From positions 1 to 64,000 of the forward strand of contig JAVKOQ020000054.1 in assembly GCA_031835245.2 (NCBI GenBank): DNA of 64,000 bases. Direction: 5' to 3'. This document shows positions 1-62,915 of the stretch, piece after piece. The stretch's first letter is position 1, and each line of letters opens with the position of its first letter. This DNA is from Balamuthia mandrillaris (lineage: Eukaryota). The notes under the pieces were generated by a model that saw only the letters and a list, made by a program, of their open reading frames with translations, did no database searches and was not told the origin of the DNA. Made by a program: the position numbers and the translations under genes.

Positions 1-234
1 TGTTGGTAAAATCACCAACACTTATCTCAAGACTCCTCATGTTGGATCCGTCCCGGACCCTCAGCTCTCCTTTCTTTTGTATCCCCCATCCTTCCTTTCT
101 CCCTTTTCCCCTTTCTCTCGTGTACTTTGAAGCAACGTCGGAGATTCACTCTCGTTGTCCTTCCTCTATTCTCTTGAATACACTCCTTGTCTCGTCACCG
201 ACTCTTTCCTTCCTAAGGTTGGATTCAACCAACA
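1..234 (+). repeat. 5' LTR
   Basis: Appears identical by eye to 4949-5177 over 229 nt. Starts TGTTGGT and ends TTCAACCAACA, followed by T8. Confidence 0.93.
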
Positions 235-286
235 TTTTTTTTGACTTACATAAGTGATTCAAATCCCCTCTTGCGCTACGCACATC

Positions 287-3200
287 ATGGAAGCCACAGC
301 CGCTCTCGACACCCTCCGTGAACAGCTTCGCAAGGCACAACAGGAGTACCTCCACATGCTCCAACAATCTTTTCAACTTGAGCTCGACATCCCCAGCTGT
401 CCCGAGACTGAACGCGTCGCCAAAGAAGAAGAACAGCGCAAGTTAGACGAAGTCGCAGAACACACTAGAAAGGCCATGGAACGGTTACAACAACGTATAG
501 ACAGCTTTGCTATTTTCCTCGCATCCACCTCGGCCACACTAGGCAATTCTTCCACATGCAACACTTCCGCTGCCGCTGTTTCTCCTCCCTCGCCCGTTCC
601 ACAGATCTCTCCCATACAGTCACCTCGTTCGAGTTCACCCTCTCCCGTTGACGTTTCCGTCAACAACACAACTGCTTCCAACAGCACACACGTTGCCTCT
701 GTCCCAGAAACACAGAACAACACAACTACTCCTTCCCCTCCTACTCAGAAGAAAATGCCTCGCCTTCCCCCCGGACTACCTAAGTTCGACGTCAGCAAGC
801 GCCAGGACCCCGCTCTTCACACCATGGAACTGGAGTATCACCTCAACGCCTACAACTACCCTGAGGATAGATGGACGCAAGCCCTCATCACCACCCTTGT
901 TGGAGACGGACGTCTTTGGGCCATTAGCGCTCTACGAGACCAACCATGGAACGTCGCCCGAGACCTCTTCCATCGGCACTACCACCTTCCAGACATCGAG
1001 GCCACAACGATTGAGGCCGTCACGTCGTTTCGACAGAAGCCTGGCGAAAGCGTTCATCAACTCATCGATCGGTATTCTGTACTCTGTAATCGTCTTCCTG
1101 ACACCTTCTACGACTACCTCAAAGCCTTCTTCTTTGGACGAGCCCTTCTTCCCCACATCAAGTCGAAGTACAAGCAACAGACTCTTCGCAACAAGCCACA
1201 AGACGTCATCGCTGCTTTCGAGCTCGCAGTCCTCATAGAAGCAGAGTTTCCACAACCTTCTTCGAAAGATAAAGGTCACAGCAAATCACCTCAAAGGCAA
1301 TCACAGTTACCCCACACTATCGGTGCTGTTTGCGCACACTGCAAAACACGCAACCACACGGAAGATCAGTGCCAAAAAAAGGCCCGCAAGCTACAACGGC
1401 AGTCTTCTCCAGCTACGTCTGCTACACCAGCCTTATCTTCTGCTCCCACAACACGCAACCCCACGTCAACACTGCCGCAACAAACACGCGCGCAACTACC
1501 AGCACGCCAGTCCTCTCCCAGCTCACGTTCCCTCAACTCCATGTCTTCTACGCAACAACAGAGCAACACACCCGCTCCTGCCGCTGAGCAGCAAGACTCT
1601 ATCGGAGATGAAGAGGAGTACGACGAGTTCTATGAGTCACAACGGGCTCTCAACTCTATCACCGTCACTGACGATATGCCTGGACCCAACGACCCTATCT
1701 GTGCCCCGATGACCATCAACGGCCGTCGAGTCACCGCTGTCATAGATTCTGGCGCCAGCCACTCCTTTATGGACCCTTCCATTGTTGACTTAGTTCGTGC
1801 CAAAACCAAGCAAGCCAACTACATGGTCAAACTCGGACACCGTGAAACCACCGCTACATGTGCCGCCGAAACGGAGCCACTCGCTATTGGCTTCGGCGAA
1901 TGCTGTTTCCATCACATGTTCTCCGTGTTGCCTCAACCAGATGGTCAATCGATCATCCTGGGCCGCGACTTCATGCGCAAGTCCGGCATGGGCATTACAG
2001 ACATCCCAATCGACTACCCTGAGGAACCACTACCTCGCTCCAAGGACCACGACATCACCCGACGCCAACATCAACGTTTGGTGAAAGCTGTCAAGGAACA
2101 CATCCGCAAGCGTATTCTCGAAGCCATCGAGAAATACCTCCAGGAGAATGAGGCTCTACCGACAGGACCTTCCTGTACCCTCCCCGAAGCGGTTCTCCAT
2201 CTGGACACTGGAGACCACCCTCCTGTCTTTCGCCACCAATACCCCATCCCACACCATTTAATGCTCGTTATCGATCTGCAAGTGGCGGAATGGCTGCGTA
2301 CCGGCGTCATCGTGCTCGCCCCACCCGACAGTCCCTGGAACTCTCCTCTCACCGTCGTACCCAAGAAGGACGCTGACGGCAACGTCACCCAGTGGCGTGT
2401 CTGCATCGATCCGCGCCTTCTGAACAAGCTCCTTTTGGACCTCACATACCCAATCCCTACTATCCGCAGCATCATCTCCAAAGTGCAAGGCTTTTTCATC
2501 GCCTCCGCCCTCGACCTTATCTGGTCTTACACACAATGCCCCATTGCTCCTGAAGACTGCGTCAAAACTACATTCACATGGAACGGTCGTCGTTACATGT
2601 TCGTCGCCGCCATTTTTGGCATCAAAATCGTTGCACAGCACTTCCAGCGCCTCATGGACGTTGTCACTGCCGCTATTGCCGAGTTCACTTCCCATTACAT
2701 CGATGATCTCGCTGTCGTTTCCCAAAGTGTGGAAGAACATATCGAGCACCTTATCCGCGTTATCCTCACTCTCACCGCCGCGGGACTCCGTATCCGTCGG
2801 GAGAAGTGTCAGTTCGGGTACAAACGCCTCTGCATCCTCGGTTTTATCATCGACTGCAGCAACATCCTTCCCGACCAACGCAAGCTCTCCACCTTCGCAC
2901 TTCTCGAAGTACCTTCCACCAGCAAACAAATGCAATCCTTCCTTGGCTTTGCAGGCTACCTTCGCGACTTCATTCCCATGTTCGCCCAACTCGTTCGGCC
3001 CCTTGACACCCTCCGGTACATCAAGGATGTCCGTCCCCATTGGAACCAAGACTGCCAGGACGCCTTTGACGCCCTCACACACATCTTATCCAACCCACCT
3101 GTGCTCTCACTCTATGACCCATCCTTACCTCTTTTGGTTGGCACCGATGCCTCCCAATTCGGTGTTGGCGCTGTCCTTTACCAGATCGGACCCAACAACA

Positions 3201-4937
3201 AGCACTGGTACATCGCGTTCGTGAGCAAGGCTCTCAACCCTGCCCAACGCAACTATCCTGCCACCAAACGAGAGATGCTCGTCATCCTCTTCGCCGTCCG
3301 CTCCTTCAGCGATTGGCTCTATGGCAACAAGTTCATGATCTTTTCTGATCACAAGGCTTTGTCCTACCTCTTCACTTCTAACAGTAAAAAACTACACCCT
3401 CAACTATTGGGCTCTCCTCATCTCCGAGTACAACTTCGAGATCGTCCACCGCCCTGGCGTTCACATGATCCTTGAGGACTGTCTCTCTCGGCTGTACCCG
3501 CGCTCCTTCTGGGACAACGGTGGTCTTACACCTCCCTCCATCCCTCTTGACGCCCCTCGCTTGGCTCAGCACAAACCCCGCGACCTCAAGGCTCTCGCCT
3601 TGGTTGACAACTCCCCATCCACAGCCAAATCCGCTCTTAACAGGCACATCAAGGGCAGACTCAGCAAACAACTCCCTTCCACCTCCAAACGGAAACACCT
3701 CCTGCAGCTGTTCCACACAGAAGGACATCACGGAGCAGAAACCTTGTTCGTCAAGATCTGGAATGAAGGCTATTACTGGCCTACTCTTCGTGCTGACTGT
3801 TCCCGCACTTGCCTACAATGCAATGACTGCCTTAAGCACAACGTCACCAAACACGGCTTTCATTCCCTCAAAACCATCCACGCCACTTACCCCTTCGATC
3901 ACGTCGCCATCGATCTGTTTGGCCCACTTCCCACTTCTTCCAAAGGCTTCAACTACGTTCTGGTCACCACAGACATCGCTACCGGTTCCACTTCCCTCCG
4001 CCCAATCCACGCCAAGACTGCTAAAGACGTGGCCCGCACCCTGTATCAAGTCGTCTCTGATTTCGGTCTCCCTAAGATCCTTCAGTCAGACAACGGCACT
4101 GAGTTCGTCAACGCGATCATCAAAGCTCTCAAGACACTCTCTGGCTTTGAGCACCGGTTCATCTTGGCCTATCATCCTCGAGCCAACGGAGCTGCAGAAA
4201 GCCATGTCAAGCTGGCCCGCAACACCCTTAACAAGCTCATTAACAGTGATTGGTCTCACTGGCACACCTTTCTTCCTGCTGCCCAATACGCAATCAACCA
4301 ACGCGTCACCCATCGTCACAAGTCTTCCCCTTTCCAACTGTTCTTTGGTCGCCCAGCTACCACTCCACAAGACTATTCTTCTTCCTCCTCCCAGCTTCCT
4401 ACCGAAACTCTCCTCTTGGAGAATGCCAAGCAAATGCATGATATTGTCTACCCGGCATCAGCATCTTCTACCCGGAAGCACAGCTCCAACATCAAGGCTC
4501 AACATGATTCCTCTAAGCCACTCCGCGAATTTTCCACTGGTTCCAAAGTCATGCTACGCAAGCCTCCCAGGTCTCCCAAGTCTCTTCCTGAGTACTCTGG
4601 CCCCTACACAGTTATCCGCCGCAATCGTGGTGGTGCATATCTCCTCCAGGACAGCACCAGTGTTACCCTCCCAGACAAATTCAGCCCCAACCAGCTGAAG
4701 CTCGTTGCCCCCCCAGAGGACTCGACTACTAATGAACTCCTGCCAGATGAGTACGAAATAGATGAAATCCTTGATCACAAAGGCCCAGCCAATAAGCGTG
4801 AATACTTTGTTCACTGGAAAGGCTACCCACATTCTGACAACCAATGGATCCCTGCTAAAGATGTTCATGCTCCCAAACTCGTCAAACGTTATTGGGATCT
4901 CCTCAAACAATCTTCTTCACCTTCCACTTCTTCTTAA
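287..4937 (+). CDS. Gag-Pol polyprotein, single ORF broken by a +1 frameshift at ~3375-3392
   Basis: Gag zinc knuckle CAHCKTRNHTEDQC; protease AVIDSGASHSF; RT YIDD; RNase H TDAS...SDHKAL continuing in another frame as YWALLISEYNFEIVHRPG; integrase HHCC, D-D-E (IDLFG, SDNGTEF, NGAAES) and GPY; chromodomain EYEIDEILDHK...YFVHWKGY. Confidence 0.95.
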
Positions 4938-4948
4938 GAGGGGGAGTA

Positions 4949-5178
4949 TGTTGGTAAAATCACCAACACTTATCTCAAGACTCCTCATGTTGGATCCGTC
5001 CCGGACCCTCAGCTCTCCTTTCTTTTGTATCCCCCATCCTTCCTTTCTCCCTTTTCCCCTTTCTCTCGTGTACTTTGAAGCAACGTCGGAGATTCACTCT
5101 CGTTGTCCTTCCTCTATTCTCTTGAATACACTCCTTGTCTCGTCACCGACTCTTTCCTTCCTAAGGTTGGATTCAACA
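4949..5178 (+). repeat. 3' LTR
   Basis: Follows the polypurine tract plus TA; ends GGATTCAACA. Confidence 0.93.
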
Positions 5179-5713: not shown

Positions 5714-7132
5714 CGCACAGGTTTATTGTGGCAGCAGCAACATTCATAGTCTAAACAATAATTGTTATAATTGGTCTTGGTTCATTTGTTCTTCTTTTGA
5801 CATTCACTCACACTTTGTTTTTTGTCTCTTTCTTTCTCTCTCTTTCCCTCTTTTTTTCTTTATTTTTTTCTCTTTTTCTTCTTTTACACTGCTTCTTTAG
5901 GTGGTTCATGAAATTAACAGATTAACCTACCAAAGATCAACAACAACAATTTTATTGCTCCTTATGACTTGAATGTTGTACAACTTGGGTAGAAAATCAT
6001 CCAAATGAGTTTGATAAGAATGTGTTAGCTGAAGTTGCAGCAACTTTTCAGGCCAAAAACAAATCTTCTCTTCATTGATTGAATATTCATCATCAGCTTT
6101 GCCGTCAACACATCTCTGGCATTCTGCAAAGCTTTTTCAGTGGCTTGAATGAGCTGGTGGATGAGTTTGTAGCTCCTGTACTTCCCAAGTTGGTCAACGG
6201 ATCACCCATTCACAAAGCATTCCTCACCCCTCGTCAAGAGCAATCATCCTCTTCCCTTTGTTGACGGGGGATAAACCCTGCGGATCAAGAAAGGGATGGC
6301 ACGTAAGCGACTCTGGGTTTATTCACAAGAAAAGAGGTGTGGACCAAAGTGTGTGCTTTGAGTGTGTCGTGAGGAAAAAGGGAAAATAAAAAGGGGTGAG
6401 AGAATTCGGGGTATCCAGGGAAAGTGTCGACAGGAAGTCATAATGACGCGAATTGTTGGTTTTCCAACACCTTGCTTCTCTCGATGATGACAATGACAAG
6501 AGTCGTGACTCAAAAAAACAAACACCACAACGACAACGACTTCGCAGAGCGCTTCAGCGACAACAATTGTTATCCAGTCGACTCAAATATCGAAAGAATG
6601 GCCATTGGCAACGGATCGCTTGGCAGGCACCAGAAATCCGTAGACTTGTCACTTGGTGCTTGCGTGATGAATGGTCTTGGTTGTAGATTGCCAAACACTT
6701 GCCTACCCAACATCAAACCAACAATGATTGCTATGATAAATGGCGCAATCTCCTCACAGAATTCTCCAACAATCTGGGCGCTTTGAAGGCCAAATACTTG
6801 GTGGCCCACGATGAGGACTTTGACAAATCGGATGATGATGATGATAATGACAACACTTGCTTCCCATCATCATCTCCTACTTCTACTACCACTACAGTTA
6901 TATCCATCTTGGATGAAGAGGAAGAGACAAAGGAGAATGATGATGATGATGATGATGATGATATTATGATTATATCTTGTTAAATTATATAGGTATTCCT
7001 ATACAAAAATTGAAAAAATTGCTACTTTGACCCACTTTATCCGTTAGACTTATAGACTTAGAGTTTTATAGAATGGACCATGGGGAGTTGAATGCCGTAG
7101 GTTCTGAGTACCCGCCCCTAACCCTAACCAAG
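5714..7132 (+). mobile_element. Repeat unit copy A: intron-containing Myb/telobox-like pseudogene ending in (CCCTAA)2CC
   Basis: Aligns to 7779-8979. In-frame stops plus a solo-LTR insertion; encodes ...NDCYDKWRNL and an acidic tail. Confidence 0.7.
6259..6469 (-). mobile_element. Solo LTR (211 bp) of a related family
   Basis: Absent from copy B; TG...CA ends; 4-bp CCTT target duplication at 6255-6258 and 6470-6473. The minus strand starts TGTTGGAAAACCAACA, contains AATAAA and ends TCAACA. Confidence 0.9.
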
Positions 7133-7778: not shown

Positions 7779-8979
7779 CGCACAGGTTTATTGTGACAGT
7801 AGCAACATTCATAGTCTAAATAATAATTGTTATAATTGGTCTTAGTTCATTTGTTCTTCTTTTGACATTCACTCACACTTTGTTTTTTGTCTCTTTTCTC
7901 ATTTTCTTTCTTTTCCTCTTTCTTTCTCTCGCTTTCTCTTTCTCTCTTCTTCTTTTACACTGCTTCTTTAGGTGGTTCATGAAACGAACAGATTTGCCAA
8001 CCAAAGATCAACAAATACGATTTTATCGCTCCTTGTGGCTTGAATGTTGTACTGCTTGGGTAGAAAATCATCCAGATGAGTTTGATAAGGATGTGCTAGC
8101 TGAAGCTGCAGCCACCTATGAGGCCAAAAACAAATCTCCTCTTTGTTGGCCCAATATTCATCGCCAGCTGTGCTGTCAACACATCTCTGGCATTCTGCAA
8201 AGCTTTTTCAGTGGCTTGAATGAGCTGGTGGATGAGTTTGTAGCTCCTGTACTTCCCAAGTTGGTCAACGGATCACCCATTCACAAAGCATTCCTCACCC
8301 CTCGTCAAGAGCAATCATCCTCCTCCCTTGCTTCTCTCGATGATGATGATGACAAGAGTCCTGACTCAAAAAAACAAACACCACGACGACAACGAGTTCG
8401 CAGAGTGCTTCAGCGACAACAATTGTTATCCAGTCGACTCAAATATCGAAAGAATGGCCATCGGCAACGGATCGCTTGGCAGGCACCAGAAATCCGTAGA
8501 CTTGTCACTTGGCGCTTGCGTGATGGATGGTCTTGGTTGGAGATTGCCACACACTTACCTACCCAACATCGAACCAACAATGATTGCTAAGATAAATGAT
8601 GCAATCTCCTTACAGAATTCTTCAACAATCTGGATGCTTTGAAGGCTAAATACTTGGTGGCCCACGATAAGGATTTTGACAAATCAGATGATAATGATAA
8701 TGACAATACTTCCTCTCCATCATCATCTCCTATTTCTACTATCACTACCGTTATATCCATCTTGGATGAAGAGAAAGAGACAAAGGAGAATGATGATGAT
8801 GATGATGATATAATGATTATATTTTATTAGATTATATAAGTATTCCTATACAAAAATTGAAAAAATTGCTACTTAGACCCACTTTATCTATTAGACTTAT
8901 AGACTTAGAGTTTTATAGAATGAACCATGGGGAATTGAATGCTGTAGGTTCTGAGTACCCGCACCTAACCCTAACCAAG
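7779..8979 (+). mobile_element. Repeat unit copy B: Myb/telobox-like pseudogene flanked by CCCTAA motifs
   Basis: ORF reads RQRIAWQAPEIRRLVTWRLRDGWSWLEIATHLPTQHRTNNDC then stops. CCCTAACCCTAACC at 7766-7779 and CCTAACCCTAACC at 8964-8976. Confidence 0.7.
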
Positions 8980-9752
8980 GGCTGGCTGCCGTGGCGTTGG
9001 AGCTGCTGGGCTACAGCACGGACCAGAGCTTCTCCGTGATAAGCCTGGGCAACGCCATTCCAAGCCACAGTGCGGAGCCCAACAGCTTTGGCATTCGGTG
9101 GATCCAAGTTACCTACTTCTTGTTCGTTTTCGTGGTGCCGCTCCTTCACTTGGTCACTTAGTTGACGTTGTGGCTGCTGCCCCTCCGTCCTATCTTCCAA
9201 CGACTCTTGTTTCTCGTGTCGGAAGTGCTGAATGCCTGGTCCTCTCTGGAGGTCTTTATCGTCTCCATCGTCGCCGCGCTGCTCCAGATAGACCAGTTTG
9301 CTGAATTCATTGTTGGAGACAAGTGCGAAGCCATCGACGACATTGTGGAACAGTACCTCAAGAACTTCTTACACGGCGAGCCAGCGACTTGCTTCTCCGT
9401 CGTGGCAACGTTGCAGTGGGGATGCTGGCTCCTCTTCATAGCATGCTTGGTCTACCAGCTTGCCGCCTTCTTGGTGATGCGTCTCTGCCACAAGATCATG
9501 GAAGAACGAGAGCATCAGGCCTTTCGTGCTTCTCTCAACTCGCACACCGCAGCTTCCTCTTCCTCATCTTCTGGTTCTGCTTCTCCCTCCTCTTGGCCCC
9601 TTTCCTCACTGCAGGGCGGAAATGAAGAAGAGACGTTGCAACAGACGAAAGCTATTTTGGACGAGATGAAGGACAGCCGCTGCGGGCCTGCCATTCGTTA
9701 TGTTTGCTTGTTGCTGCGTTTGGTGAGGGAAGAAGAAAAAGAGGTAGACTGA
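8976..9752 (+). pseudogene. 5'-truncated PqiA-like (paraquat-inducible protein A domain) membrane protein
   Basis: Frame runs from the repeat junction (GLAAVALELL...) with an in-frame TAG at 9159-9161; motif AWSSLEVFIVSIVAALLQI; no start codon. Confidence 0.6.
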
Positions 9753-9785
9753 GTCGATTGATATTTCTATTGTTTTAAAACAGAG

Positions 9786-9945
9786 CTGTAGACATCAAAA
9801 TAACATCACCAACTAGCATACTTTTGCGGATGGATCAAAAACCATAGCACTAAACCATCGTCCGCCCACGGCACCCCGCAACATCCCTGTCGGCTCCATT
9901 GGGCAACGCTACACAACAAGACGCCGCAGGAGAATGTTGCGCGCT
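9786..9945 (-). ncRNA. Putative omegaRNA scaffold / right end of a Fanzor2-type element
   Basis: Directly downstream of and overlapping the TnpB-like stop. Stems CGCAACATTCTCCTG/CAGGGATGTTGCG and GCGGA...TCCGC; TGATGT direct repeats 11 bp apart before CTACAG. Confidence 0.55.
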
Positions 9946-10180
9946 CCATTTACATCTCGATCCAGTCGTGTCCCACAGTCCCTATGTTCACACTCAAAGA
10001 TCCGGTTTCGTTGGTTGGTTAGCTTTTGTTCGTGGGTCACACGAAGCCACCGAGCACAGGTTTGCTTGTCCAAGCCTCTGAGCGTACATAGACCTTTGCC
10101 CTTCCCTGGCCTTATGCATCAATCATTGGCGGAATCGAAAGTGAGCCCAGGAAAAACATCCTGGCTGGTTGCTTGCTGTT
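9909..10180 (-). pseudogene. Decayed Fanzor2/TnpB nuclease C-terminus (zinc finger and RuvC-III)
   Basis: Manual minus-strand translation across frameshifts: SWAHFRFRQ*LMHKARE / VYVRSEAWTS / TCARW...RIFECEHRDCGTRLDRDVNGARNILLRRLVV*. Confidence 0.88.
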
Positions 10181-10504
10181 CTAATAGAAGTCAGCAGCCA
10201 ACTTGTTCAAGCAAAAACACATTCCCTCTCTTTCTCGCACAAAAGGAAGACAGAACAAAAGGAGAAAGCGGAGCAAAAAAAAAAGATCTCAGCCAGGTGA
10301 TGGATAACAATTAGTTAGGAAAAAAGAGAGGAAGTATCGCAATTCACAACTTTTCCGTAATGGTACTGCCAATCAAAAAGCGACACGTGCGCAGCAAATA
10401 AATGATTTCGAGCACTAATTGTAACTGCTGCCTTTGTTTCGACCCTCTTTTTGGTCGTCTTTTATACTGGACAGAGTAAGAACAACAAGAATAATAACAC
10501 ACCA

Positions 10505-11221
10505 ATGTCTGCCACAAGGAACAACGTTTGTGGTAGCTGCCTTAGTTGGACCAGTCTGGTCTTGCTCTTCGTCTCCTTGGTCATTCCTTGGTACCTCATC
10601 ACCACACACATTGAGAACATCGACACTGGCTTGGTGTGCACAGCGACAAATGTTACCTTTTGGGCTCATTCTGTGTGCGCCTCTCAGGGAGATTGCGATC
10701 ATGAACAAGTCTGTGGAGAGGAGGATGTTCACGCCTTCTGGGGAGAGAAAGACAATCACTTGGGAACAGTCTTCGCTCCGACCTTCTTCCTAATGCTGCT
10801 CACCACCATCATCGCGTTGTTGGCTGCTCTGATATTCTCCGCTCGCTGTTGTTGCATGCAAGCATCTTCTCCCCGATCAGCAATGCTCACCAAGGCTGCC
10901 CTCCTCTTAGCCGTTTTGGGCGTGCTGGCGCTCACCATAGCAATCATCATCTTTGCTGCCCTCTTGCCCAACGCTTGGAAGGCCAGTGTGGATGACGAGA
11001 CGGAGGCCGTCAAAGGACCTTGGGACAGCTTCATTGGCCATGATGAACGGGAGTTCAACATACCGGAGGTAATCAGTATTAAAACCAAGTTTGTGTGGGC
11101 TCCAGTGGGGTGGTGGTTTGCCATCCTGGCATGGCCGTTCTTAGTGGGAACCACCATTGCTCTTTTCACTGCTGAACGCTCAGTCCGCACAGAACATGCC
11201 TATTCCATTATCAACCAATGA
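10505..11221 (+). CDS. Four-TM claudin/amastin-like membrane protein, intronless
   Basis: Four hydrophobic segments; Cys-rich first loop after PWY. Confidence 0.7.
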   Translation: MSATRNNVCGSCLSWTSLVLLFVSLVIPWYLITTHIENIDTGLVCTATNVTFWAHSVCASQGDCDHEQVCGEEDVHAFWGEKDNHLGTVFAPTFFLMLLTTIIALLAALIFSARCCCMQASSPRSAMLTKAALLLAVLGVLALTIAIIIFAALLPNAWKASVDDETEAVKGPWDSFIGHDEREFNIPEVISIKTKFVWAPVGWWFAILAWPFLVGTTIALFTAERSVRTEHAYSIINQ

Positions 11222-15094: not shown

Positions 15095-16261
15095 TTACAA
15101 GTGATATGATGGCGAGACAAGACGGCCACCCTGAATGATAATATCTTCAGGGCGGAGTGGCTTCCCTTGGAAGAAGTTGGTGAGGATGTCCTTTACGCCA
15201 GCCGCGTAGCGAGCCTGTGCGTCAAGCGTGGTCCCTGAGTAGTGAGGCGTGAGGGCATGGCGGGGCATCCTGCGCCAGGGATGATTTGGAGGAGCAGGTT
15301 GAGGATACCACACATCTCCTGCATAGCCTGCCAGGTGTCCGCTTTGTAACGCATTGGCCAGAGCTTCCGTGTCCACGATCTTGCCTCGAGCCGTGTTCAC
15401 AAGGTAACACCCTTTCTTCATGGATGAGAGGAGGCGATGATCAAACAGACGGTCCGTGCGCGAAGTGAGAGGGGTGTTGATGGTCACGATGTCGCACTGG
15501 CTGACCAACGACTCCAACTCCACATAGGTCACTCCAAGTGCTCTCTCTTGCTCAGGAGAGAGCCGCTGGTAGTCATGGTAGAGCATCTTGACCCCAAAAG
15601 GTTGCAGCCTCTGGCATATGCGCTGTCCTATCCTACCACAACCGACTGTGCCCACCACTTTACCTTCCAGATCGAAGGCCTCACGGGCGATATCGGCTAC
15701 CTTCCACTCCCCGTTTACCACTTGCTGGTAGGCTGGCACAAAGTTGCGCACCAGGATGAGGATCTGCATGACCACATGCTCGGCCACGCTGGAGACATTG
15801 CTGCCAGTGACCTCAGCAACCGTTATCCCCGCCTGCCGCGCCGCCTCCAGGTCTACATGGTCTGAGCCCACCCCTGCAGTGACCACCATCTTCAAGTTGG
15901 GTCCCTTGGCTATCCTCTCCTTGGTCACGTAGGCCGGATGGAAGGGCGTCGTGATAAGCACGTCGGTGGTGGGTAGCTCTTTGTCCAACGCTTGCTCCTT
16001 GTCAGTGAGAACCTTGTACTCATGCCCTTGGCTCTGAAGCATCTCTCTGAGGCCCAGTCCGTTCTCTGCGCAGCCAAGCAGGCGAGGCTCTCTTCTGGCG
16101 GCCTCACCACCTGGATAGAGCACGGCTACTATCTTGTCCCTTCTTGTTGGAGTACTGCTGAACAAACGGGAGGAGGAGGGAGCCGTTGCAGGTCTCCAAG
16201 CCTTGAAGCTGTTGCATCCAGCGGCCACGGTGGCCCCCAGTGTCGCCCTATTCCCAAACAT
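15095..16261 (-). CDS. fdh: NAD-dependent formate dehydrogenase with probable mitochondrial presequence
   Basis: ITTPFHPAY, AGVGSDHVDL, GCGRIG, NTARG, GDVWYPQPAP, TPHYSGTTLDAQARYA. Confidence 0.96.
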   Translation of the reverse strand: MFGNRATLGATVAAGCNSFKAWRPATAPSSSRLFSSTPTRRDKIVAVLYPGGEAARREPRLLGCAENGLGLREMLQSQGHEYKVLTDKEQALDKELPTTDVLITTPFHPAYVTKERIAKGPNLKMVVTAGVGSDHVDLEAARQAGITVAEVTGSNVSSVAEHVVMQILILVRNFVPAYQQVVNGEWKVADIAREAFDLEGKVVGTVGCGRIGQRICQRLQPFGVKMLYHDYQRLSPEQERALGVTYVELESLVSQCDIVTINTPLTSRTDRLFDHRLLSSMKKGCYLVNTARGKIVDTEALANALQSGHLAGYAGDVWYPQPAPPNHPWRRMPRHALTPHYSGTTLDAQARYAAGVKDILTNFFQGKPLRPEDIIIQGGRLVSPSYHL

Positions 16262-46664: not shown

Positions 46665-46786
46665 ACCTGCGACCTATCTACTTCAACCAACTTGACAGTC
46701 AAGCCTTGCCGAGGAAGTTTGCTCGGCTCGGCCAGAGCAAGCGAAGGAAAGACGGGAGAGGTTGCAGCGACGATGCGATGTGTGAA
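46665..46786 (+). pseudogene. Collapsed remnant of an LRR family gene
   Basis: Fragments TCDLS, ALPRKFARL and ERLQRRCDV match the neighbouring LRR genes. Confidence 0.6.
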
Positions 46787-47020
46787 CGGAATGCCCCTGT
46801 TTTTTTGGTGGTGCGAACAGCTGAACTAGAGACACGTCAAGGAGTCTTGAGGAAATGAAAGGAGAAACCAAAGAGCACGACCCAAGATGAGCACTTTCAA
46901 TGAAGGTTATTCGAGAAGAGAGAAAAGCGAGCCAGAGAAGAGAGCACGAAGCAAGAAGGGGAGCAGGGCTAATAAGTAACTTAATAACCGACAAAGAAGA
47001 AGAAGAAGAAGAAAGGGCAG

Positions 47021-48719
47021 ATGGCATCAGGGTCAGGCGGTGAGGAAGAAGAGTTTTCAGCAGAGGAGGCAGAGGACAGCAAAACCCTTTCTCCCTTCCT
47101 TCAAGCCGTTACCACCTCCTGCGACCTCTCCAGCAACAGCTTGCCTAAGTTGCCGAGCACATTTGGGCTGCTGACCGCCCTCACCCACTGCGACCTCTCC
47201 TGCAACAAGTTAACGGCCTTGCCCGCCGAGTTTGGCCAGCTCACCGCTCTCACCCATTGCTGCCTCTGGGGTAACCGGTTGAAAGTCTTGCCGGGAGAGT
47301 TTGGGCAGCTGACGGCCCTCACCCGCTGCGACCTCCACGAGAACAAACTGAAGAGCTTGCCCACCGAGTTTGGTCGGCTGACCGCCCTCACCCACCTCAA
47401 CCTCAGCAAAAACTTCGGCCTGAAAGCTTTGCCCTCTGAGTTTGGCCAGCTGACGGCCCTCACCCGTTGCAACCTCTCCAGCAACAAGTTGAGGCGTTTG
47501 CCAAGGGAGTTTGGCCGGCTGACCGCCCTCACCCGTTGCGACCTCTCCCACAACGGCTTGAGGGCCTTGCCACGGGAGTTTGGCCAGCTCTCTTCCTTGC
47601 ACACCCTCGCCCTGGCCTCCAACAATTTGACGGCCTTGCCAGGAGAGCTTGGCCGGCTGACCGCCCTCACCCGTTGCGACCTCAACGAAAACTACAAGTT
47701 TGAGGGCTTTGCCAAAGGAGTTTGGCCAGCTCTCTTCCTTGCACACTCTCGTCCTGGCCTCCAACAAGCTGACGGCCTTGCCGAGAGAATTCGGTCAGCT
47801 CACCTCCCTCACGGATTGCTATCTCTGCTGCACAGATGCTTCCCTCTACCACCGGGAGCTCAATCGCTTGGCTGCACTGCCATCCTCCGCCTTTCAGCTT
47901 CTCCCTTTGTTTAACTCTGACATCTGTTCTCAGCCCTGTGCGAAGAAGGAGACCAAGCAGACCAAGCAGAGAAGAGCAACAAAGGGCAACAGAGGAAATG
48001 GGAGTGTGAAAAGTTTGTGGGATTTGGCTGGAGAGGCGGTGCTGAGAAACCAGCTTTTGCCGACAGGCATGTTGGCCCCTGTTCCTCAATTGCCTTTCAC
48101 TTGGCCTGCTTCTTCTCTGCGCCTAGAACCCGAAAATAAAGTTGAAGACGAAGAAGAAGATTATGAAGACGAAGAAGAAGAAGAAGAAGAAGAAGAAGAA
48201 GAACAAGAAGAAGAAGAAGAAGAAGAAGAAGAACAAGAACAAGAACAAGAACAAGAACAAGAAGAACAAGAAGAACAAGAAGAGGATGAAGAACAAGAAC
48301 AAGAAGTGTACGAAGCAAGCGCTGAAGACGAATTTGAAGAAATAGAAGTAATAGAAGTCGAAGAGGAAAAAGAAGAAGAAGAAGAAGAAGAAGAAGAAGA
48401 AGAAGAACGAGAAGAACAAGAAGGAGAAGGAGAAGAACAGCAACAACAGCAGCAGCAAGTGAAAGCAAAAGACGAAGCAAGTGTGGAGTGGATGGTACTG
48501 CCAGAGGAAGTGACGGAAAGACTGGAAAGGTTGCAGCAACGATGCGATGTGTGTGAATGTCTGTTTTTGGAGACAACGAGAGAAGAGGAGGAAGAAGGAA
48601 GAAGAGGGAGGCTTGTGCGAAGATATTGGGACAAGGAAAGAGAAGTGTGGTGGGAGTTGTTGTGCTGCAGCCAAAGGTGCTTGACTTCGCCTCTTCCTGG
48701 CTCTTTGCTTGAACTTTGA
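47021..48719 (+). CDS. LRR protein copy 1 (~11 LRRs, BC-box-like motif, Cys-rich tail); 1-nt frameshift at ~47700
   Basis: 23-aa LRRs; SLWDLAGEAVL; poly-Glu; RCDVCEC...LLCCSQRCL. AAGTTTGAGG here versus AAGTTGAGG in a sister repeat. Confidence 0.85.
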
Positions 48720-48976
48720 AAGGAATAATTTTCAACATTACGCCCTTTCTTTGAATGGAGAAGAGACCACTCGAAACAAAAGTCTTTTAAAGAAGAAAAC
48801 AAAGAGTACAACCCAAGATTGGTGCTTTGCAAGCCCAACGCCAAGCGTTCTGCTTTTCCTCTCGGCAGACACCAGAAGCAAATGATCCTGGAAGCGAGCA
48901 CGAAGCAAGAAGGGGAACAGGGCTAATTAATAACTTATTGACATAGAAGAAGAACAAGAAGAAGAAGAAAGGGCAG

Positions 48977-50305
48977 ATGGCATCAGGGTCAGGCGGTGAG
49001 GAAGAAGAGTTTTCAGCAGAGGAGGCGGAGGACAGCAAAACCCTTCGCTCCTTCCTCCGAGCCGTTGCCACCTCCTGCGACCTCTCCGCCAGCGAAGAAG
49101 AATTGACCAAGTTGCCGAGCACATTTGGGCAGCTGACCGCCCTCACCGACCTCGACCTCAACGAATGGGACCTGGAAGCCTTGCCCCCAGAAGTTGGGCA
49201 GCTGACGGCCCTCACCCGCTGCGACCTCGGCGGGAACCTATTGAAGAGGTTGCCTGCCGAGTTTGGCCGGCTGACCGCCCTCACCCACCTCGCCCTTAGC
49301 AGCAACCAGCTGAGGAGCTTGCCCCCCGAGTTTGGCCTTCTGTCCGCTCTTTCCTTCTGTGACCTCTCCTACAACAAGCTGACCAGCTTGCCTCCTTCCT
49401 TCGGCCAGCTGACCGCTCTCACGGAGTGCAACCTCTACTACAACAGCTTGAGGGCCTTGCCACGGGAGTTTGGCCAGCTCTCTTCCTTGCACACCCTCGT
49501 CCTGGCCTCCAACAAGCTGAGGGCCTTGCCGAGAGAATTCGGTCAGCTCACCTCCCTCACGGATTGCTATCTCTGCCGCACGGACGTTTCCCTCTACCAC
49601 CGGGAGCCCAATCGCTTGGCTGCGCTGCCCTCCTCCGCCTTTCAGCTTCTCCCTTTGTTTCGCTCCAACCTCCGCTATCAGCCCTGTGCGAAGAAGCAGG
49701 CCAAGCAGAGAGGAGCAACAAAGGGCAACAGGGGAAATGGGAGCGTGAAACGTTTGTGGCATTTGGCTGGAGAGGCGGTGCTGAGAAACCAGCTTTTGCC
49801 GACAGGCATGTTGGCCCCTGTTCCCGACTTGCCCTTCACTTGGCCTGCTTCTTCTCTGCAGGAGAAGGACCAAATAGAACAAGATGAAGATGGAGACGAA
49901 GAAGAAGAAGAAGAAGAAGAAGAAGAAGAAGAAGAAGAAGAAGAAGAAGAAGAAGAAGAAGAAGAAGAAGAAGAAGAAGGAGAAGAACAACAGCAGCAAC
50001 AGCAGCAAGTGGAAGCAAAAGACGAAGCAAATGTGGAGGGGATGGTGCTGCCGGAGGAAGTGAAGGAAAGACTGGAAAGGTTGCAACAACGATGCGACGT
50101 GTGTGAACACCTGTTTTTGGAAGCGGCCCCTGCGCAAGAAGAAATGGAAGAGGAAGCGGTGGAGGAAGAAGGAAGAGGGAGGCTTGTGCGAAGGTATTGG
50201 GACAAGGGAAGAAAAGTGTGGTGGGAGTTGTTGTGTTGCAGCCAAAGGTGCTTGACCAAGCCCCTTCCTGGCTCTTTGCTTGAACGTGGGCAGGAACAGA
50301 AGTAG
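48977..50305 (+). CDS. LRR protein copy 2 (~8 LRRs), intronless
   Basis: Tandem paralogue of copy 1, sharing upstream sequence, N-terminus and C-terminus. Confidence 0.9.
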   Translation: MASGSGGEEEEFSAEEAEDSKTLRSFLRAVATSCDLSASEEELTKLPSTFGQLTALTDLDLNEWDLEALPPEVGQLTALTRCDLGGNLLKRLPAEFGRLTALTHLALSSNQLRSLPPEFGLLSALSFCDLSYNKLTSLPPSFGQLTALTECNLYYNSLRALPREFGQLSSLHTLVLASNKLRALPREFGQLTSLTDCYLCRTDVSLYHREPNRLAALPSSAFQLLPLFRSNLRYQPCAKKQAKQRGATKGNRGNGSVKRLWHLAGEAVLRNQLLPTGMLAPVPDLPFTWPASSLQEKDQIEQDEDGDEEEEEEEEEEEEEEEEEEEEEEEEEEEGEEQQQQQQQVEAKDEANVEGMVLPEEVKERLERLQQRCDVCEHLFLEAAPAQEEMEEEAVEEEGRGRLVRRYWDKGRKVWWELLCCSQRCLTKPLPGSLLERGQEQK

Positions 50306-50469
50306 ATACGGAGTGCCAGTCTTCAAAGTTTTTATTTGTTTCTCAAGTGTTGCCACTAGTTGTTGTCGTAAAAGCATTCAACAACAAACACCGATAGATA
50401 AATAGATGGATAGAAAAGTGAGAGAGGAGGGAGAAGAGAGGGAGAGAAAGAAAGTAAAAAGAGAGGAGA

Positions 50470-61218: not shown

Positions 61219-61420
61219 CCCCCGCTTTCTCCCTCCCTCTCTCTCTTTCGCTCTCCCTCTTCCTCTCTCCTGTTTTCTTGTCTCACAATTATGATGAACC
61301 ACAGACCCAAGCTTGAAGAATCTGCTTCGGGTTAAGGCAGAACGCTTCGCGTGGACTTGCAAAGTTCGATTGATGGATTATGCTCTTTGGTTCTCTTCTT
61401 TCTTTTCTTCACAAAAGTAA
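58097..61420 (+). CDS. ABC1/UbiB (ADCK1-like) atypical kinase, multi-exon
   Basis: GGIYIKAGQH, AAASLAQVH, VAVKVQ, LTMEYI, HCDPHPGN, LDHGLY. Confidence 0.92.
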
Positions 61421-61450
61421 AAAAAATAGTGTTGGAAACGCGAAGAACTT

Positions 61451-62695
61451 CTATTCCGTTCTAAGCTCAATCCAAGAGCCAGGAAGGGGCCGGGCCAAGC
61501 ACCTGTGGCTGCAGCACAACAGCTCCCACCGCACTTGCCTTTTCCTATCCCAAAACCTTCGCACAAGACTCCCTCCTCCTCCCTCCCCCTCTCCTTCTTG
61601 TGCAGGGGCAGCCTCCAAAAACACGCATTCACACACGTCGCATCGTCGCTGCAACCTTTCCAGTCTTTCCTTCACTTCCTCCGGCAGCACCACCACACGT
61701 TGTTGTTCTTCACTTTCTTCTGCCCCTTTGGTTGCTTCTTCCTCCTCCTTCGCTGGTGGCTCGGTTGTGCGCTGCTTCTGGTGGTTCTGCTCCTGCCATG
61801 GATGAGGAGGCAGCCAAGCGAAGGGCAAGGGTGGAACAGGGGCCAACATGCCCACAGGTAAAAGCCGGTCCCTCAGCACCGCCTCTCCGCTCAACTGCCA
61901 CAGACTTTTGGGCATGTGGCTGGCCATGGCTGTCGCCCTCGCTTTCTCCTTCTCTTCTTCCATCCTTTCTTGCCCACAGGGCAGAGAGGAAAGGTCGAGC
62001 CAAGGAAGCAGCTGATAGGAGGAGGTTGGGATGGCCTTCAACTGGTTGTTGGAGAGGTCACAGTCGGTGAGGGCGGTCAGCTTCCCAAACTCTGCGGGCA
62101 AGGCCCTCAACTGATTGTAGGCGAGGTCGCAGTAGGTCAGAGCGGTCAGCCGACCAAACTCGCGGGGCAGGGCTGCCAGTTGGTTGTGCCAGAGCTCGCA
62201 GCGGGTGAGAGCGGTCAGCCGGCCAAACTCAGGGGGCAAGGCCTTCAACTGGTTGCCGGAAAGGTCGAGGTGGGTGAGGGCGCTCAGCTGACAAAGCTCA
62301 GGCGGCACGGCACTCAACATGTTGCAGGAGAGGTTGCAGCGGGTGAGGGCGGTCAGCCGACCGAACTCGCGGGGCAGGGCTTCCAGATTGTTGAAGGAGA
62401 GGTTGCAGTGGGTGAGGGCGGTCAGCCGACCGAACTCGGAGGGCAAGGCCGTCAACTCGTTCTTCGAGAGCTTGCAGTGGGTGAGGGCGGTCAGCCGACC
62501 AAACTCAGCGGGCAAAGCTGCGAGCTGGTTCTTGGAGAGGTTGCAGTGGGTGAGGGCGGTCAGCCGTCCGATCTCACCGGGCAAGAGGGTCAAATCAGCG
62601 CCCGAAAGGCAGCAGGTGGCAGAACGTGCAAAGGGTTGGAGGAGGGCGGGAAGTTCCCCGCCACGCACCATCGCGTCCGCTCCCTCGTGTTCCAT
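61451..62695 (-). CDS. LRR protein copy 3 (~9 LRRs), intronless
   Basis: Same 23-aa LRR, PKSLWQLSGEAVL and RCDVCECVFL...LLCCSHRCL. Confidence 0.9.
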   Translation of the reverse strand: MEHEGADAMVRGGELPALLQPFARSATCCLSGADLTLLPGEIGRLTALTHCNLSKNQLAALPAEFGRLTALTHCKLSKNELTALPSEFGRLTALTHCNLSFNNLEALPREFGRLTALTRCNLSCNMLSAVPPELCQLSALTHLDLSGNQLKALPPEFGRLTALTRCELWHNQLAALPREFGRLTALTYCDLAYNQLRALPAEFGKLTALTDCDLSNNQLKAIPTSSYQLLPWLDLSSLPCGQERMEEEKEKARATAMASHMPKSLWQLSGEAVLRDRLLPVGMLAPVPPLPFAWLPPHPWQEQNHQKQRTTEPPAKEEEEATKGAEESEEQQRVVVLPEEVKERLERLQRRCDVCECVFLEAAPAQEGEGEGGGGSLVRRFWDRKRQVRWELLCCSHRCLARPLPGSWIELRTE

Positions 62696-62915
62696 CTTCC
62701 TTCCTTTAACCTGGGTTAATAATAATATTTGAAGCGCACCTAGTAAAAGCAAAGCACGGCTGATGAACGGCTACATAGCCCGTTCTTTCTTTCTTTTTTT
62801 TTTTGTTTAAGGGGTTGGCATCAAGGAAGGGGGAAGCCAAACCTTCTCTCTCTTTGGTTGGTTTTTGCCGGGGTTAGCGCAGAGGGCAGGGGCGTTACAC
62901 GCAGCGGAGAGGGAT

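What the first reader, a model, noticed from the sequence alone, without database searches (positions are those of the whole stretch)
9786..10180. Hidden Fanzor2/TnpB remnant missed by the ORF track
Seen: the minus strand encodes, across about three frameshifts and one stop, W-x-H-F-R-F-R-Q, EAWTS-x-TC, the C-x4-C half of a zinc finger and DRDVNGARNIL. Known: these are hallmark C-terminal motifs of IS607-derived TnpB/Fanzor2 RNA-guided nucleases found in amoebae and their giant viruses. Only ~90 codons remain, implying past or present activity of a Fanzor family in this lineage.
Basis: partly seen in the sequence, partly recalled or inferred. Interest (0 to 1): 0.85.

Follow-up and report, generated by a model that had tools for sequence, protein, structure and literature searches.

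The report
Amoeba Fanzor2 relic flags young family
This is a broken 370-base tail of a bacterial-type jumping gene for an RNA-guided DNA cutter (Fanzor2) in what is very likely the amoeba Balamuthia; the piece itself is likely dead, but the same species holds near-identical, intact-looking copies with their transposase that likely jumped recently inside its nucleus.

Summary
The minus strand at 10178-9912 carries the last ~90 codons of a Fanzor2: three frameshifts, one stop, one zinc-finger cysteine lost; Pfam PF07282 E 9e-8. It runs on into the element's non-coding right end (guide-RNA scaffold region), to about 9804. No N-terminal part, RuvC-I or transposase is left in the window, and the flanks are nuclear amoeba genes, not virus. 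Its closest full-length proteins are all labelled Balamuthia mandrillaris (77-81% identity over 74 positions). The relic sits at the same site in three samples and is still decaying: one allele lacks two of the breaks, another deletes 236 bases. It is likely dead. The useful part is the family. Balamuthia gene models hold complete IS607 serine recombinase plus Fanzor2 with all catalytic motifs, 98.8-100% identical to each other. One copy splits a Rictor gene and one appears nested in an older copy, which points to recent nuclear transposition (inferred from protein records only). The fused TnpA-Fanzor2 models are likely annotation artefacts. I found no paper on this family. Verdict: a new member of a known kind.

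The parts
10155..10178 (-). Leftmost recognisable coding piece (SKQPARMF, matching GKKTARML of full-length relatives); left truncation of the element at about 10180
   Evidence: Translation against alignment, matched by eye; GC falls from 0.52 to 0.40 beyond 10170
10102..10152 (-). Second piece (SWAHFRFRQ*LMHKARE) with an in-frame stop at 10125-10123
   Evidence: 14 of 17 identical to P0002; the stop is absent in the X3 contigs
10064..10096 (-). Third piece (KVYVRSEAWTS) with the C-terminally shifted RuvC-II glutamate at 10078-10076
   Evidence: aligns with the invariant E591 of alignment A2
9912..10061 (-). Fourth piece: zinc finger with the second cysteine replaced by Trp (10049-10047), C-x4-C at 9992-9975, RuvC-III Asp at 9956-9954, stop at 9914-9912 (likely the native stop of an older subfamily)
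   Evidence: 36 of 46 identical to P0002; P0001 ends in the same frame
9804..9935 (-). Decayed right end and omega-RNA scaffold region: hairpin loop 9909-9901, predicted pseudoknot partner 9809-9804; element end inferred at about 9804
   Evidence: Homology to the start of gene model P0046 over 9949-9842, score 54.8 against a maximum of 32.4 in 30 shuffles; loop-to-end pattern of relatives; GC 0.54 inside against 0.28 at 9753-9803; folds no better than shuffles
9784..9803 (-). Flank that would serve as guide if the right end is at 9804
   Evidence: Inference from the known architecture; no other match with fewer than 5 mismatches in the window
10062..10297 (.). Stretch deleted in a second allele; removes the RuvC-II glutamate and the left junction
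   Evidence: Joint in contigs of X1 (depth 17.2) and X9 (depth 3.7), table 5c
8985..9752 (+). Left neighbour: PqiA-like membrane gene, 5'-truncated by a repeat and with an in-frame stop at 9159-9161; likely a pseudogene copy
   Evidence: Pfam PF04403 E 4e-5; translation; repeat
10505..11221 (+). Right neighbour: multi-copy membrane protein gene with a weak claudin-like match, divergent from the remnant
   Evidence: PF00822 E 7e-5, below cut-off; many paralog contigs

Best explanation
The stretch 10180-9804 is the truncated, broken 3' end of an IS607-type transposon that encoded a Fanzor2 nuclease, and it is likely dead and likely decaying neutrally in the nuclear genome of what is very likely Balamuthia mandrillaris. 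Shown: motifs, breaks, absence of the rest of the element from the window, allelic decay, and full-length relatives with intact catalytic motifs. Inferred from characterised relatives: the intact element would move as DNA by its TnpA serine recombinase. Its Fanzor2 would bind an RNA read from the right end into the flank and would cut the empty site left after excision, so that repair restores the element. This copy inserted before the sampled strains diverged, lost everything 5' of the last ~90 codons and then gathered point lesions. Younger subfamilies of the same family likely kept transposing until recently.
For: Profile hits. Closest proteins are Balamuthia-labelled: 60/74 identical to P0002, 57/74 to P0003, 55/74 to P0001, and 50/74 to the metagenomic P0004 (pieces 2-4; piece 1 was cut in the wrong frame there and is left out). 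The remnant groups with these four at FastTree support 1.0 among 165 sequences. Runs that hold the window also hold contigs whose loose ends translate, by hand, into the C-termini of P0002 and P0003, which ties the window to that species. Same site in contigs of samples S1, S2 and S4; allelic difference about 2% (9 letters in 544 for X3; 11 in 550 plus 14 gap positions for X9) against 16-19% to the paralog contigs listed. Two of four breaks are absent in X3 and a deletion allele exists in X1 and X9. The right end folds no better than shuffles, z -0.36 and -0.97. Family: four cluster members (five records) are 98.8-100% identical over 427 Fanzor residues, with DPG, shifted Glu, four Cys and RD and an IS607 TnpA above the NCBIfam cut-off. 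One sits between Rictor domains. Three consecutive accessions on one 16.6-kb contig read as older N-half, complete young copy, older C-end. The model's best structural match is ApmFz2, 9b0l, E 4e-18.
Against: No genome was held, so I saw no DNA of any full-length copy. Nesting, the Rictor insertion and intactness rest on automatic gene models and accession order. The species is described as diploid-like (10.1101/2025.02.25.640156, passages), so some near-identical records may be alleles or segmental duplicates. No empty site was seen in 4 runs, so both ends are inferred. Ten reads of this very locus (10056-10230) occur in 1 of 3 raw RNA runs, 8 of 10 in the orientation expected for Fanzor-sense RNA, so it is not wholly silent. 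Neutral decay was not tested by dN/dS.
Confidence: 0.85

Rival explanations
1. The locus is a guide-only ('ghost') element: the protein is dead but the right end would still yield an omega-RNA that loads Fanzor2 made by intact copies.
For: The right end is retained, and its hairpin-loop sequence is the same as in both young subfamilies (loose ends). A few sense-strand reads come from the locus. Gene-less guide elements were reported by an earlier agent in a giant virus (e1-5489118, marked as in print; not tested here).
Against: The fold is no better than shuffles. The only candidate pseudoknot partner, 9809-9804, pairs with three wobbles in six (pairing by hand). An X9 allele changes a stem base at 9828. 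The reads seen lie on the coding piece; none of the three raw runs covers 9769-9891, though coverage is very low and short RNAs are lost in such libraries. No left end was found.
Confidence: 0.07
2. The family expresses TnpA and Fanzor2 as one spliced fusion protein, an adaptation to nuclear translation.
For: Five Balamuthia gene models join the two, three of them at the same acceptor. A 771-residue Acanthamoeba model, XP_004344636.1, also starts with TnpA and runs into Fanzor. Six more of the 222 proteins held hit both halves, one fungal model and five metagenomic ORFs, and P0076 joins TnpA to the Fanzor HTH.
Against: The junction differs among the models: four different joins in five models, which is typical of ab initio introns bridging two frames. 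P0002 has its own start with an N-terminal segment resembling that of other Fanzor2s (by eye). In 159 related loci, 92 have a TnpA ORF and none is fused; 84 of the 92 overlap the Fanzor frame. The metagenomic joins look, by eye, like frameshifted or deleted copies.
Confidence: 0.12
3. The piece is a remnant of an integrated giant virus rather than of a nuclear transposon family.
For: Fanzor2/IS607 is common in giant viruses, and 79 viral loci with relatives were fetched. The best solved relative is viral.
Against: Viral relatives are 25-43% identical, against 77-81% for the full-length Balamuthia proteins. The 17 window ORFs scanned gave eukaryote-type families (F-box, BTB, LRR, ABC, gypsy) and no core viral gene; two weak poxvirus-named hits are below cut-off. 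A viral route for the family's first arrival is not excluded.
Confidence: 0.03
4. The multi-copy state comes from alleles and segmental duplication, and the family has not transposed in the nucleus.
For: Gilbert and Cordaux found many eukaryotic IS607 copies to be segmental duplicates (PMC3673617, parts 2-4). The genome is diploid-like, and this window itself holds local duplications.
Against: Near-identical copies lie in unrelated contexts: inside Rictor and apparently inside an older copy. At least three divergence classes exist (69%, 87%, 99-100%). Paralog contigs carry the remnant's core but not its flanks.
Confidence: 0.15

Closest known systems
ACa-1/ACa-2 (Ac3, Ac4), IS607-like Fanzor2 elements of Acanthamoeba castellanii (PMC3627910, PMC3673617)
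   Same: Amoebozoan nuclear IS607 elements with serine recombinase and Fanzor2; many eukaryotic copies are fragments that keep the zinc-ribbon end; a fused gene model also exists there.
   Different: Different host and family. The Balamuthia records show near-identical copies in unrelated contexts, which the 2013 study could not show for Acanthamoeba. I did not align the Acanthamoeba sequences.
ApmFz2 (mimivirus L79, PDB 9B0L; PMC11832414)
   Same: Best sequence and fold match among solved structures; same D / shifted E / D triad; right-end RNA with pseudoknot.
   Different: Only 24% identical in the structural alignment; viral. Balamuthia proteins have C-x4-C as the second zinc pair and an insertion in the WED region. 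The window copy is a broken fragment.
Naegleria lovaniensis Fanzor2 (several near-identical records in the supplement of PMC10711439; activity of NlovFz2 recalled, paper not read)
   Same: Multi-copy nuclear Fanzor2 in a free-living amoeba with the same motifs.
   Different: Unrelated amoeba lineage; whether its copies carry TnpA was not checked here.
Cyanobacterial pro-Fanzor IS607 TnpB (10.1101/2023.08.09.552727)
   Same: DPG motif, Glu six residues before the zinc finger, TnpA serine recombinase.
   Different: Prokaryotic; here the host is a eukaryote, with acidic low-complexity linkers in both proteins.

Membership tests
TnpB/Fanzor superfamily | C-terminal zinc ribbon plus RuvC-III (PF07282) | tested here: met
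   Remnant E 8.9e-8, above cut-off; NF040570 partial, E 1.5e-4
Fanzor2 / pro-Fanzor | RuvC-II Glu six residues before the first zinc-finger Cys | tested here: met
   Glu at 10078 then AWTSKT-C across one frameshift; met without a break in P0002-P0004 and P0045-P0047
Fanzor2 / pro-Fanzor | DPG motif in RuvC-I | tested here: inconclusive
   That region is deleted in the remnant; present in all six relatives long enough to hold it
Fanzor2 / pro-Fanzor | Published pattern with CxxC-x(12,18)-CxxC | tested here: inconclusive
   The strict pattern fails in all six close relatives only because the second pair is C-x4-C; a relaxed pattern passes in all six. The remnant has lost the second Cys. The spacing is a variant, not a different site.
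Fanzor2 | Encoded in a eukaryote or its virus | tested here: met
   Window genes are eukaryote-type; closest proteins are labelled Balamuthia mandrillaris
Fanzor2 | Falls in the Fanzor2/pro-Fanzor clade | tested here: inconclusive
   Groups with the Balamuthia proteins (support 1.0) among rearranged-site TnpBs, but the set held no canonical TnpB outgroup and no reference named by a call; best PDB match is Fanzor2
Fanzor2 | RNA-guided, TAM-dependent DNA cleavage | not testable with these tools
   Needs a TAM screen with a full-length copy
Fanzor2 | Right-end omega-RNA with loop-to-end pseudoknot | tested here: inconclusive
   Element-derived right end present; fold not above shuffles; partner degenerate; no Rfam match
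IS607 (eukaryotic, 'IS607EU' in PMC13565253) | TnpA serine recombinase (MerR-type HTH plus resolvase) upstream of TnpB | tested here: met
   Met for the family: NF033518 128 bits against cut-off 110 in P0003, solved IS607 TnpA domains hit. Absent from the window itself.
IS607 | No terminal inverted repeats and no target-site duplication; dinucleotide crossover | tested here: inconclusive
   No convincing terminal repeats around the remnant, but the left end is lost and no empty site was seen
Fanzor2* (captured by TIR transposons) | TIRs and TSDs, no IS607 TnpA | tested here: not met
   The family carries an IS607 TnpA

The most novel reading that the evidence does not exclude
Balamuthia carries an IS607 transposon that is still jumping in its nucleus and that has solved eukaryotic expression by splicing its serine recombinase and its RNA-guided nuclease into one protein. 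The weaker form, an element still mobile today with two separate overlapping genes, I put at about 0.5, with interest about 0.55.
Probability: 0.1. Interest if true: 0.75.

Novelty: new member of a known kind. Interest (0 to 1): 0.4.

Why it matters
The fragment is ordinary. It points, however, to a Fanzor2 family for which I found no paper (Fanzor+Balamuthia 0 papers; Balamuthia+TnpB 0; Balamuthia+IS607 1, an unrelated mention; no Balamuthia row in the supplements searched). Gilbert and Cordaux (PMC3673617) could not show that IS607 transposes in any eukaryotic genome and named an intact amoeba copy as the test case. A cultured amoeba with near-identical complete copies, one inside Rictor and one apparently inside an older copy, makes that question testable by comparing strains. 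It also supplies a compact nuclear Fanzor2 of about 450-490 residues for a TAM screen. Caveat: eukaryotic IS607 families are already catalogued as 'IS607EU' (PMC13565253, passages), and Repbase and subscription journals were not searchable, so recent activity in a eukaryote may already be on record.

Tried and rejected
Own-genome search: no genome held. Other copies, N-terminal pieces or TnpA in the window: none. Close viral relatives with P0047 alone: none of 441 pattern matches confirmed. Empty-site allele: none in 4 DNA runs; contigs show presence, not absence. Left end or terminal repeats: only short chance-level repeats. Rfam: no match up to E 1. No RNA holder was listed by the run index, which is no evidence either way. 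Summed contig depth at 9970 is 20.7, 3.7, 44.8 and 26.4 times the depth of one neighbouring paralog contig in X1, X3, X5 and X9; the tool says that this is no copy number, so I do not count it as strain variation. High depth of family contigs in X21 (633 and about 250) is not counted as expression because RNA is only a guess for that run. Loop-to-end complement length in relatives with mapped ends was not significant on its own: 44-71 of 100 shuffles reached it in 7 of 9 loci, 5 and 8 in the other two. Only its position in a hairpin loop supports it, and the feature is known. The first tree dropped 77 of 159 loci by its filter and is not used beyond the Balamuthia grouping; the 'canon' label was wrong, since those are rearranged-site proteins without a zinc finger. 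The TnpA half of the structure model is unreliable (pLDDT mostly below 50; the alignment had no TnpA relatives). No earlier notes exist on this genome or sequence. No complex was folded.

Full report
Observation. Relatives align in three linked pieces in three frames (tblastn E 1e-25 with P0002; 3e-20 with P0001). The breaks are three frameshifts (near 10154, read by eye, and near 10100 and 10062) and a stop at 10125-10123. The last open piece passes Pfam PF07282 (E 8.9e-8, 32.6 bits, cut-off 26.3; the two shorter pieces hit nothing) and hits NF040570 in part. A profile from rearranged-site relatives, run on all 2254 six-frame segments, finds only this place; a TnpA profile built from 92 locus ORFs plus one Balamuthia TnpA finds nothing. 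Self-comparison shows no second copy in the window.

Setting. The window is eukaryotic and nuclear: a chromodomain Ty3/gypsy element, F-box, BTB, LRR, ABC-transporter and dehydrogenase genes (13 of 17 ORFs scanned had a Pfam match). The remnant lies between a PqiA-like gene copy that is 5'-truncated and holds an in-frame stop and a multi-copy membrane-protein gene. No whole genome was held.

Host and family. The only hit of the last piece was a 102-residue protein labelled Balamuthia mandrillaris. It led to 43 longer relatives, of which the best two carry the same label. The same label is on P0045-P0047 and on P0078. Over the 74 positions of pieces 2-4 the remnant is identical to P0002 at 60, P0003 at 57, P0001 at 55 and the metagenomic P0004 at 50 (piece 1 was cut in the wrong frame there and is left out). 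In a tree of 165 sequences it groups with these four at support 1.0; the set had no canonical TnpB outgroup. Runs that hold the window also hold contigs whose loose ends, translated by hand, give the C-termini of P0002 and P0003. The host is therefore very likely B. mandrillaris. Viral relatives are 25-43% identical.

Anatomy against the definition. Yoon et al. (10.1101/2023.08.09.552727, parts 1-5 of 7 read) define Fanzors and pro-Fanzors by a DPG motif and a RuvC-II Glu six residues before the zinc finger. All six close relatives long enough have DPG-x140-E-x6-CxxC-x18-C-x4-C; they fail the strict published pattern only through the C-x4-C spacing. The remnant keeps the Glu and the RuvC-III Asp, has lost one Cys and lacks everything upstream. 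The best solved relative by sequence and by fold is mimivirus Fanzor2, 9b0l (E 4e-22; Foldseek E 4e-18 on a model of mean pLDDT 66 whose TnpA half is unreliable). P0003 and P0046 carry an IS607 TnpA above the NCBIfam cut-off.

Right end. Element DNA continues past the stop. The start of gene model P0046 is itself a decayed Fanzor tail; its degenerate back-translation aligns to 9949-9842 with score 54.8, against a maximum of 32.4 in 30 shuffles. In relatives whose ends could be mapped from pairs of copies (9 loci, 3 families), the last bases pair with a hairpin loop 57-101 bases upstream. This is the pseudoknot described for ApmFz2 (PMC11832414, parts 1-2 of 5 read), although the pairing length alone was mostly not above shuffles. 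The window has such a loop at 9909-9901 and one candidate partner at 9809-9804, pairing with three wobbles in six. GC drops from 0.54 to 0.28 just beyond 9804. I place the end at about 9804; this is inferred. The region folds no better than shuffles (z -0.36; z -0.97 for a longer cut) and matches no Rfam family.

Age and decay. Four DNA runs were laid, of 21 listed. Contigs of samples S1, S2 and S4 carry the remnant at this site; S3 is covered only in part and at low depth. No joint removes the whole element. An X1 contig is identical to the window over 9991-10345. The X3 allele differs at 9 letters in 544 and lacks the stop and the frameshift near 10062. X1 and X9 hold a second allele that deletes 10062-10297. 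The paralog contigs listed differ by 16-19%. So the insertion predates the split of these samples and lesions are still accumulating.

Expression. In three raw RNA runs (3-5% of each read), 10 reads of this locus cover about 10056-10230 in X18 only, 8 with the first mate on the plus strand. Judged from five reads on the neighbouring gene, that would be Fanzor-sense RNA. A few paralog reads occur in X17 and X18, none in X19. None covers 9769-9891. The neighbours are barely covered too, so little follows.

The family looks young. Four cluster members, on five records including contigs of 438, 279, 208 and 17 kb, are 98.8-100% identical over 427 Fanzor residues. P0002 is 87% and P0078 69% identical to them. 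In P0046 the element lies between Rictor domains (RICTOR_M and RasGEF_N_2 before it, RICTOR_V after it). Accessions KAL6041057.1.58.1 and .59.1, each on a contig of 16,590 bases, read as the front half of an older copy, a complete young copy and the tail of an older copy, that is, a nested insertion. This is inferred from protein records; I saw no DNA, and alleles of a diploid-like genome (10.1101/2025.02.25.640156, passages) may account for some records.

Fusion or two genes. Five Balamuthia models join TnpA and Fanzor2, at four different junctions. Of 159 related loci, 92 have a TnpA ORF on the same strand, none fused, and 84 of the 92 overlap the Fanzor frame. P0002 has its own N-terminal start. 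I read the joins as predicted introns bridging two frames. Against this reading: an Acanthamoeba model is also fused, six further proteins of the 222 held hit both halves, and one more joins TnpA to the Fanzor HTH.

Mechanism. From established knowledge of IS607 and Fanzor2 (PMC13565253, passages; PMC10530073, passages), the intact element would excise and insert through TnpA, and Fanzor2 with its right-end RNA would cut the empty site and favour restoration. None of this was tested here. The window copy can make no nuclease, since RuvC-I and the recognition domains are gone, and probably no working guide RNA.

Known and new. Nuclear Fanzor2/IS607 elements of Acanthamoeba are in print (PMC3627910, passages; PMC3673617, parts 2-4 of 6), and Naegleria records are in the Yoon supplement (PMC10711439, supplement searches only). 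The 2013 study could not conclude that IS607 transposes in eukaryotes. Searches for a Balamuthia family gave 0 papers, one unrelated mention and 0 for a wider five-term search; some searches were read as listings only. No Balamuthia row was found in two supplements. The Jiang table has only three columns and may lack species names, one of its PDFs was too large to read, and bioRxiv supplements were closed, so these blanks are weak. The activity of NlovFz2 is recalled, not read.

Verdict. Observation confirmed, interpretation supported. The piece is a likely dead Fanzor2 tail (confidence 0.85), a new member of a known kind. Interest 0.4, resting on the apparently undescribed and likely recently mobile family behind it.

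Noticed in passing
window 1-5177: Chromodomain Ty3/gypsy retrotransposon with long open gag-pol frames (protease, RT, RNase H, integrase, chromo) and an identical 229-base stretch at both ends (1-229 = 4949-5177): likely very young.
   Followed up: partly
window 5714-7132 and 7779-8979: Two copies (90-92% identical) of a repeat of about 1.2 kb with a 242-codon ORF that has no Pfam match. Telomere-like CCTAACCCTAAC motifs lie at 7117, 7767 and 8964, at or near its ends; the second copy abuts the truncated PqiA-like gene. Possibly an unclassified mobile element.
   Followed up: no
window 8985-9752: PqiA-like (bacterial-type paraquat-inducible A domain) gene copy with an in-frame stop; a paralog about 85% identical lies on longer contigs.
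   Followed up: partly
window 46700-50400 and 61400-62800: Cluster of leucine-rich-repeat genes with 69-base internal repeats in both orientations.
   Followed up: no
protein P0046 (KAL6067239.1): A Rictor gene model appears hit twice: it begins with a decayed Fanzor right end, and a complete element lies between its domains.
   Followed up: partly
loci L010, L018-L020, L024, L030, L036, L039, L047, L049-L051, L055, L063, L070, L098, L140: Rearranged-site TnpBs (DPG or similar, shifted Glu) that have lost the zinc-finger cysteines.
   Followed up: no
window 15095-16261: Intronless 2-hydroxyacid dehydrogenase gene that looks like formate dehydrogenase (label recalled; Pfam PF02826).
   Followed up: no
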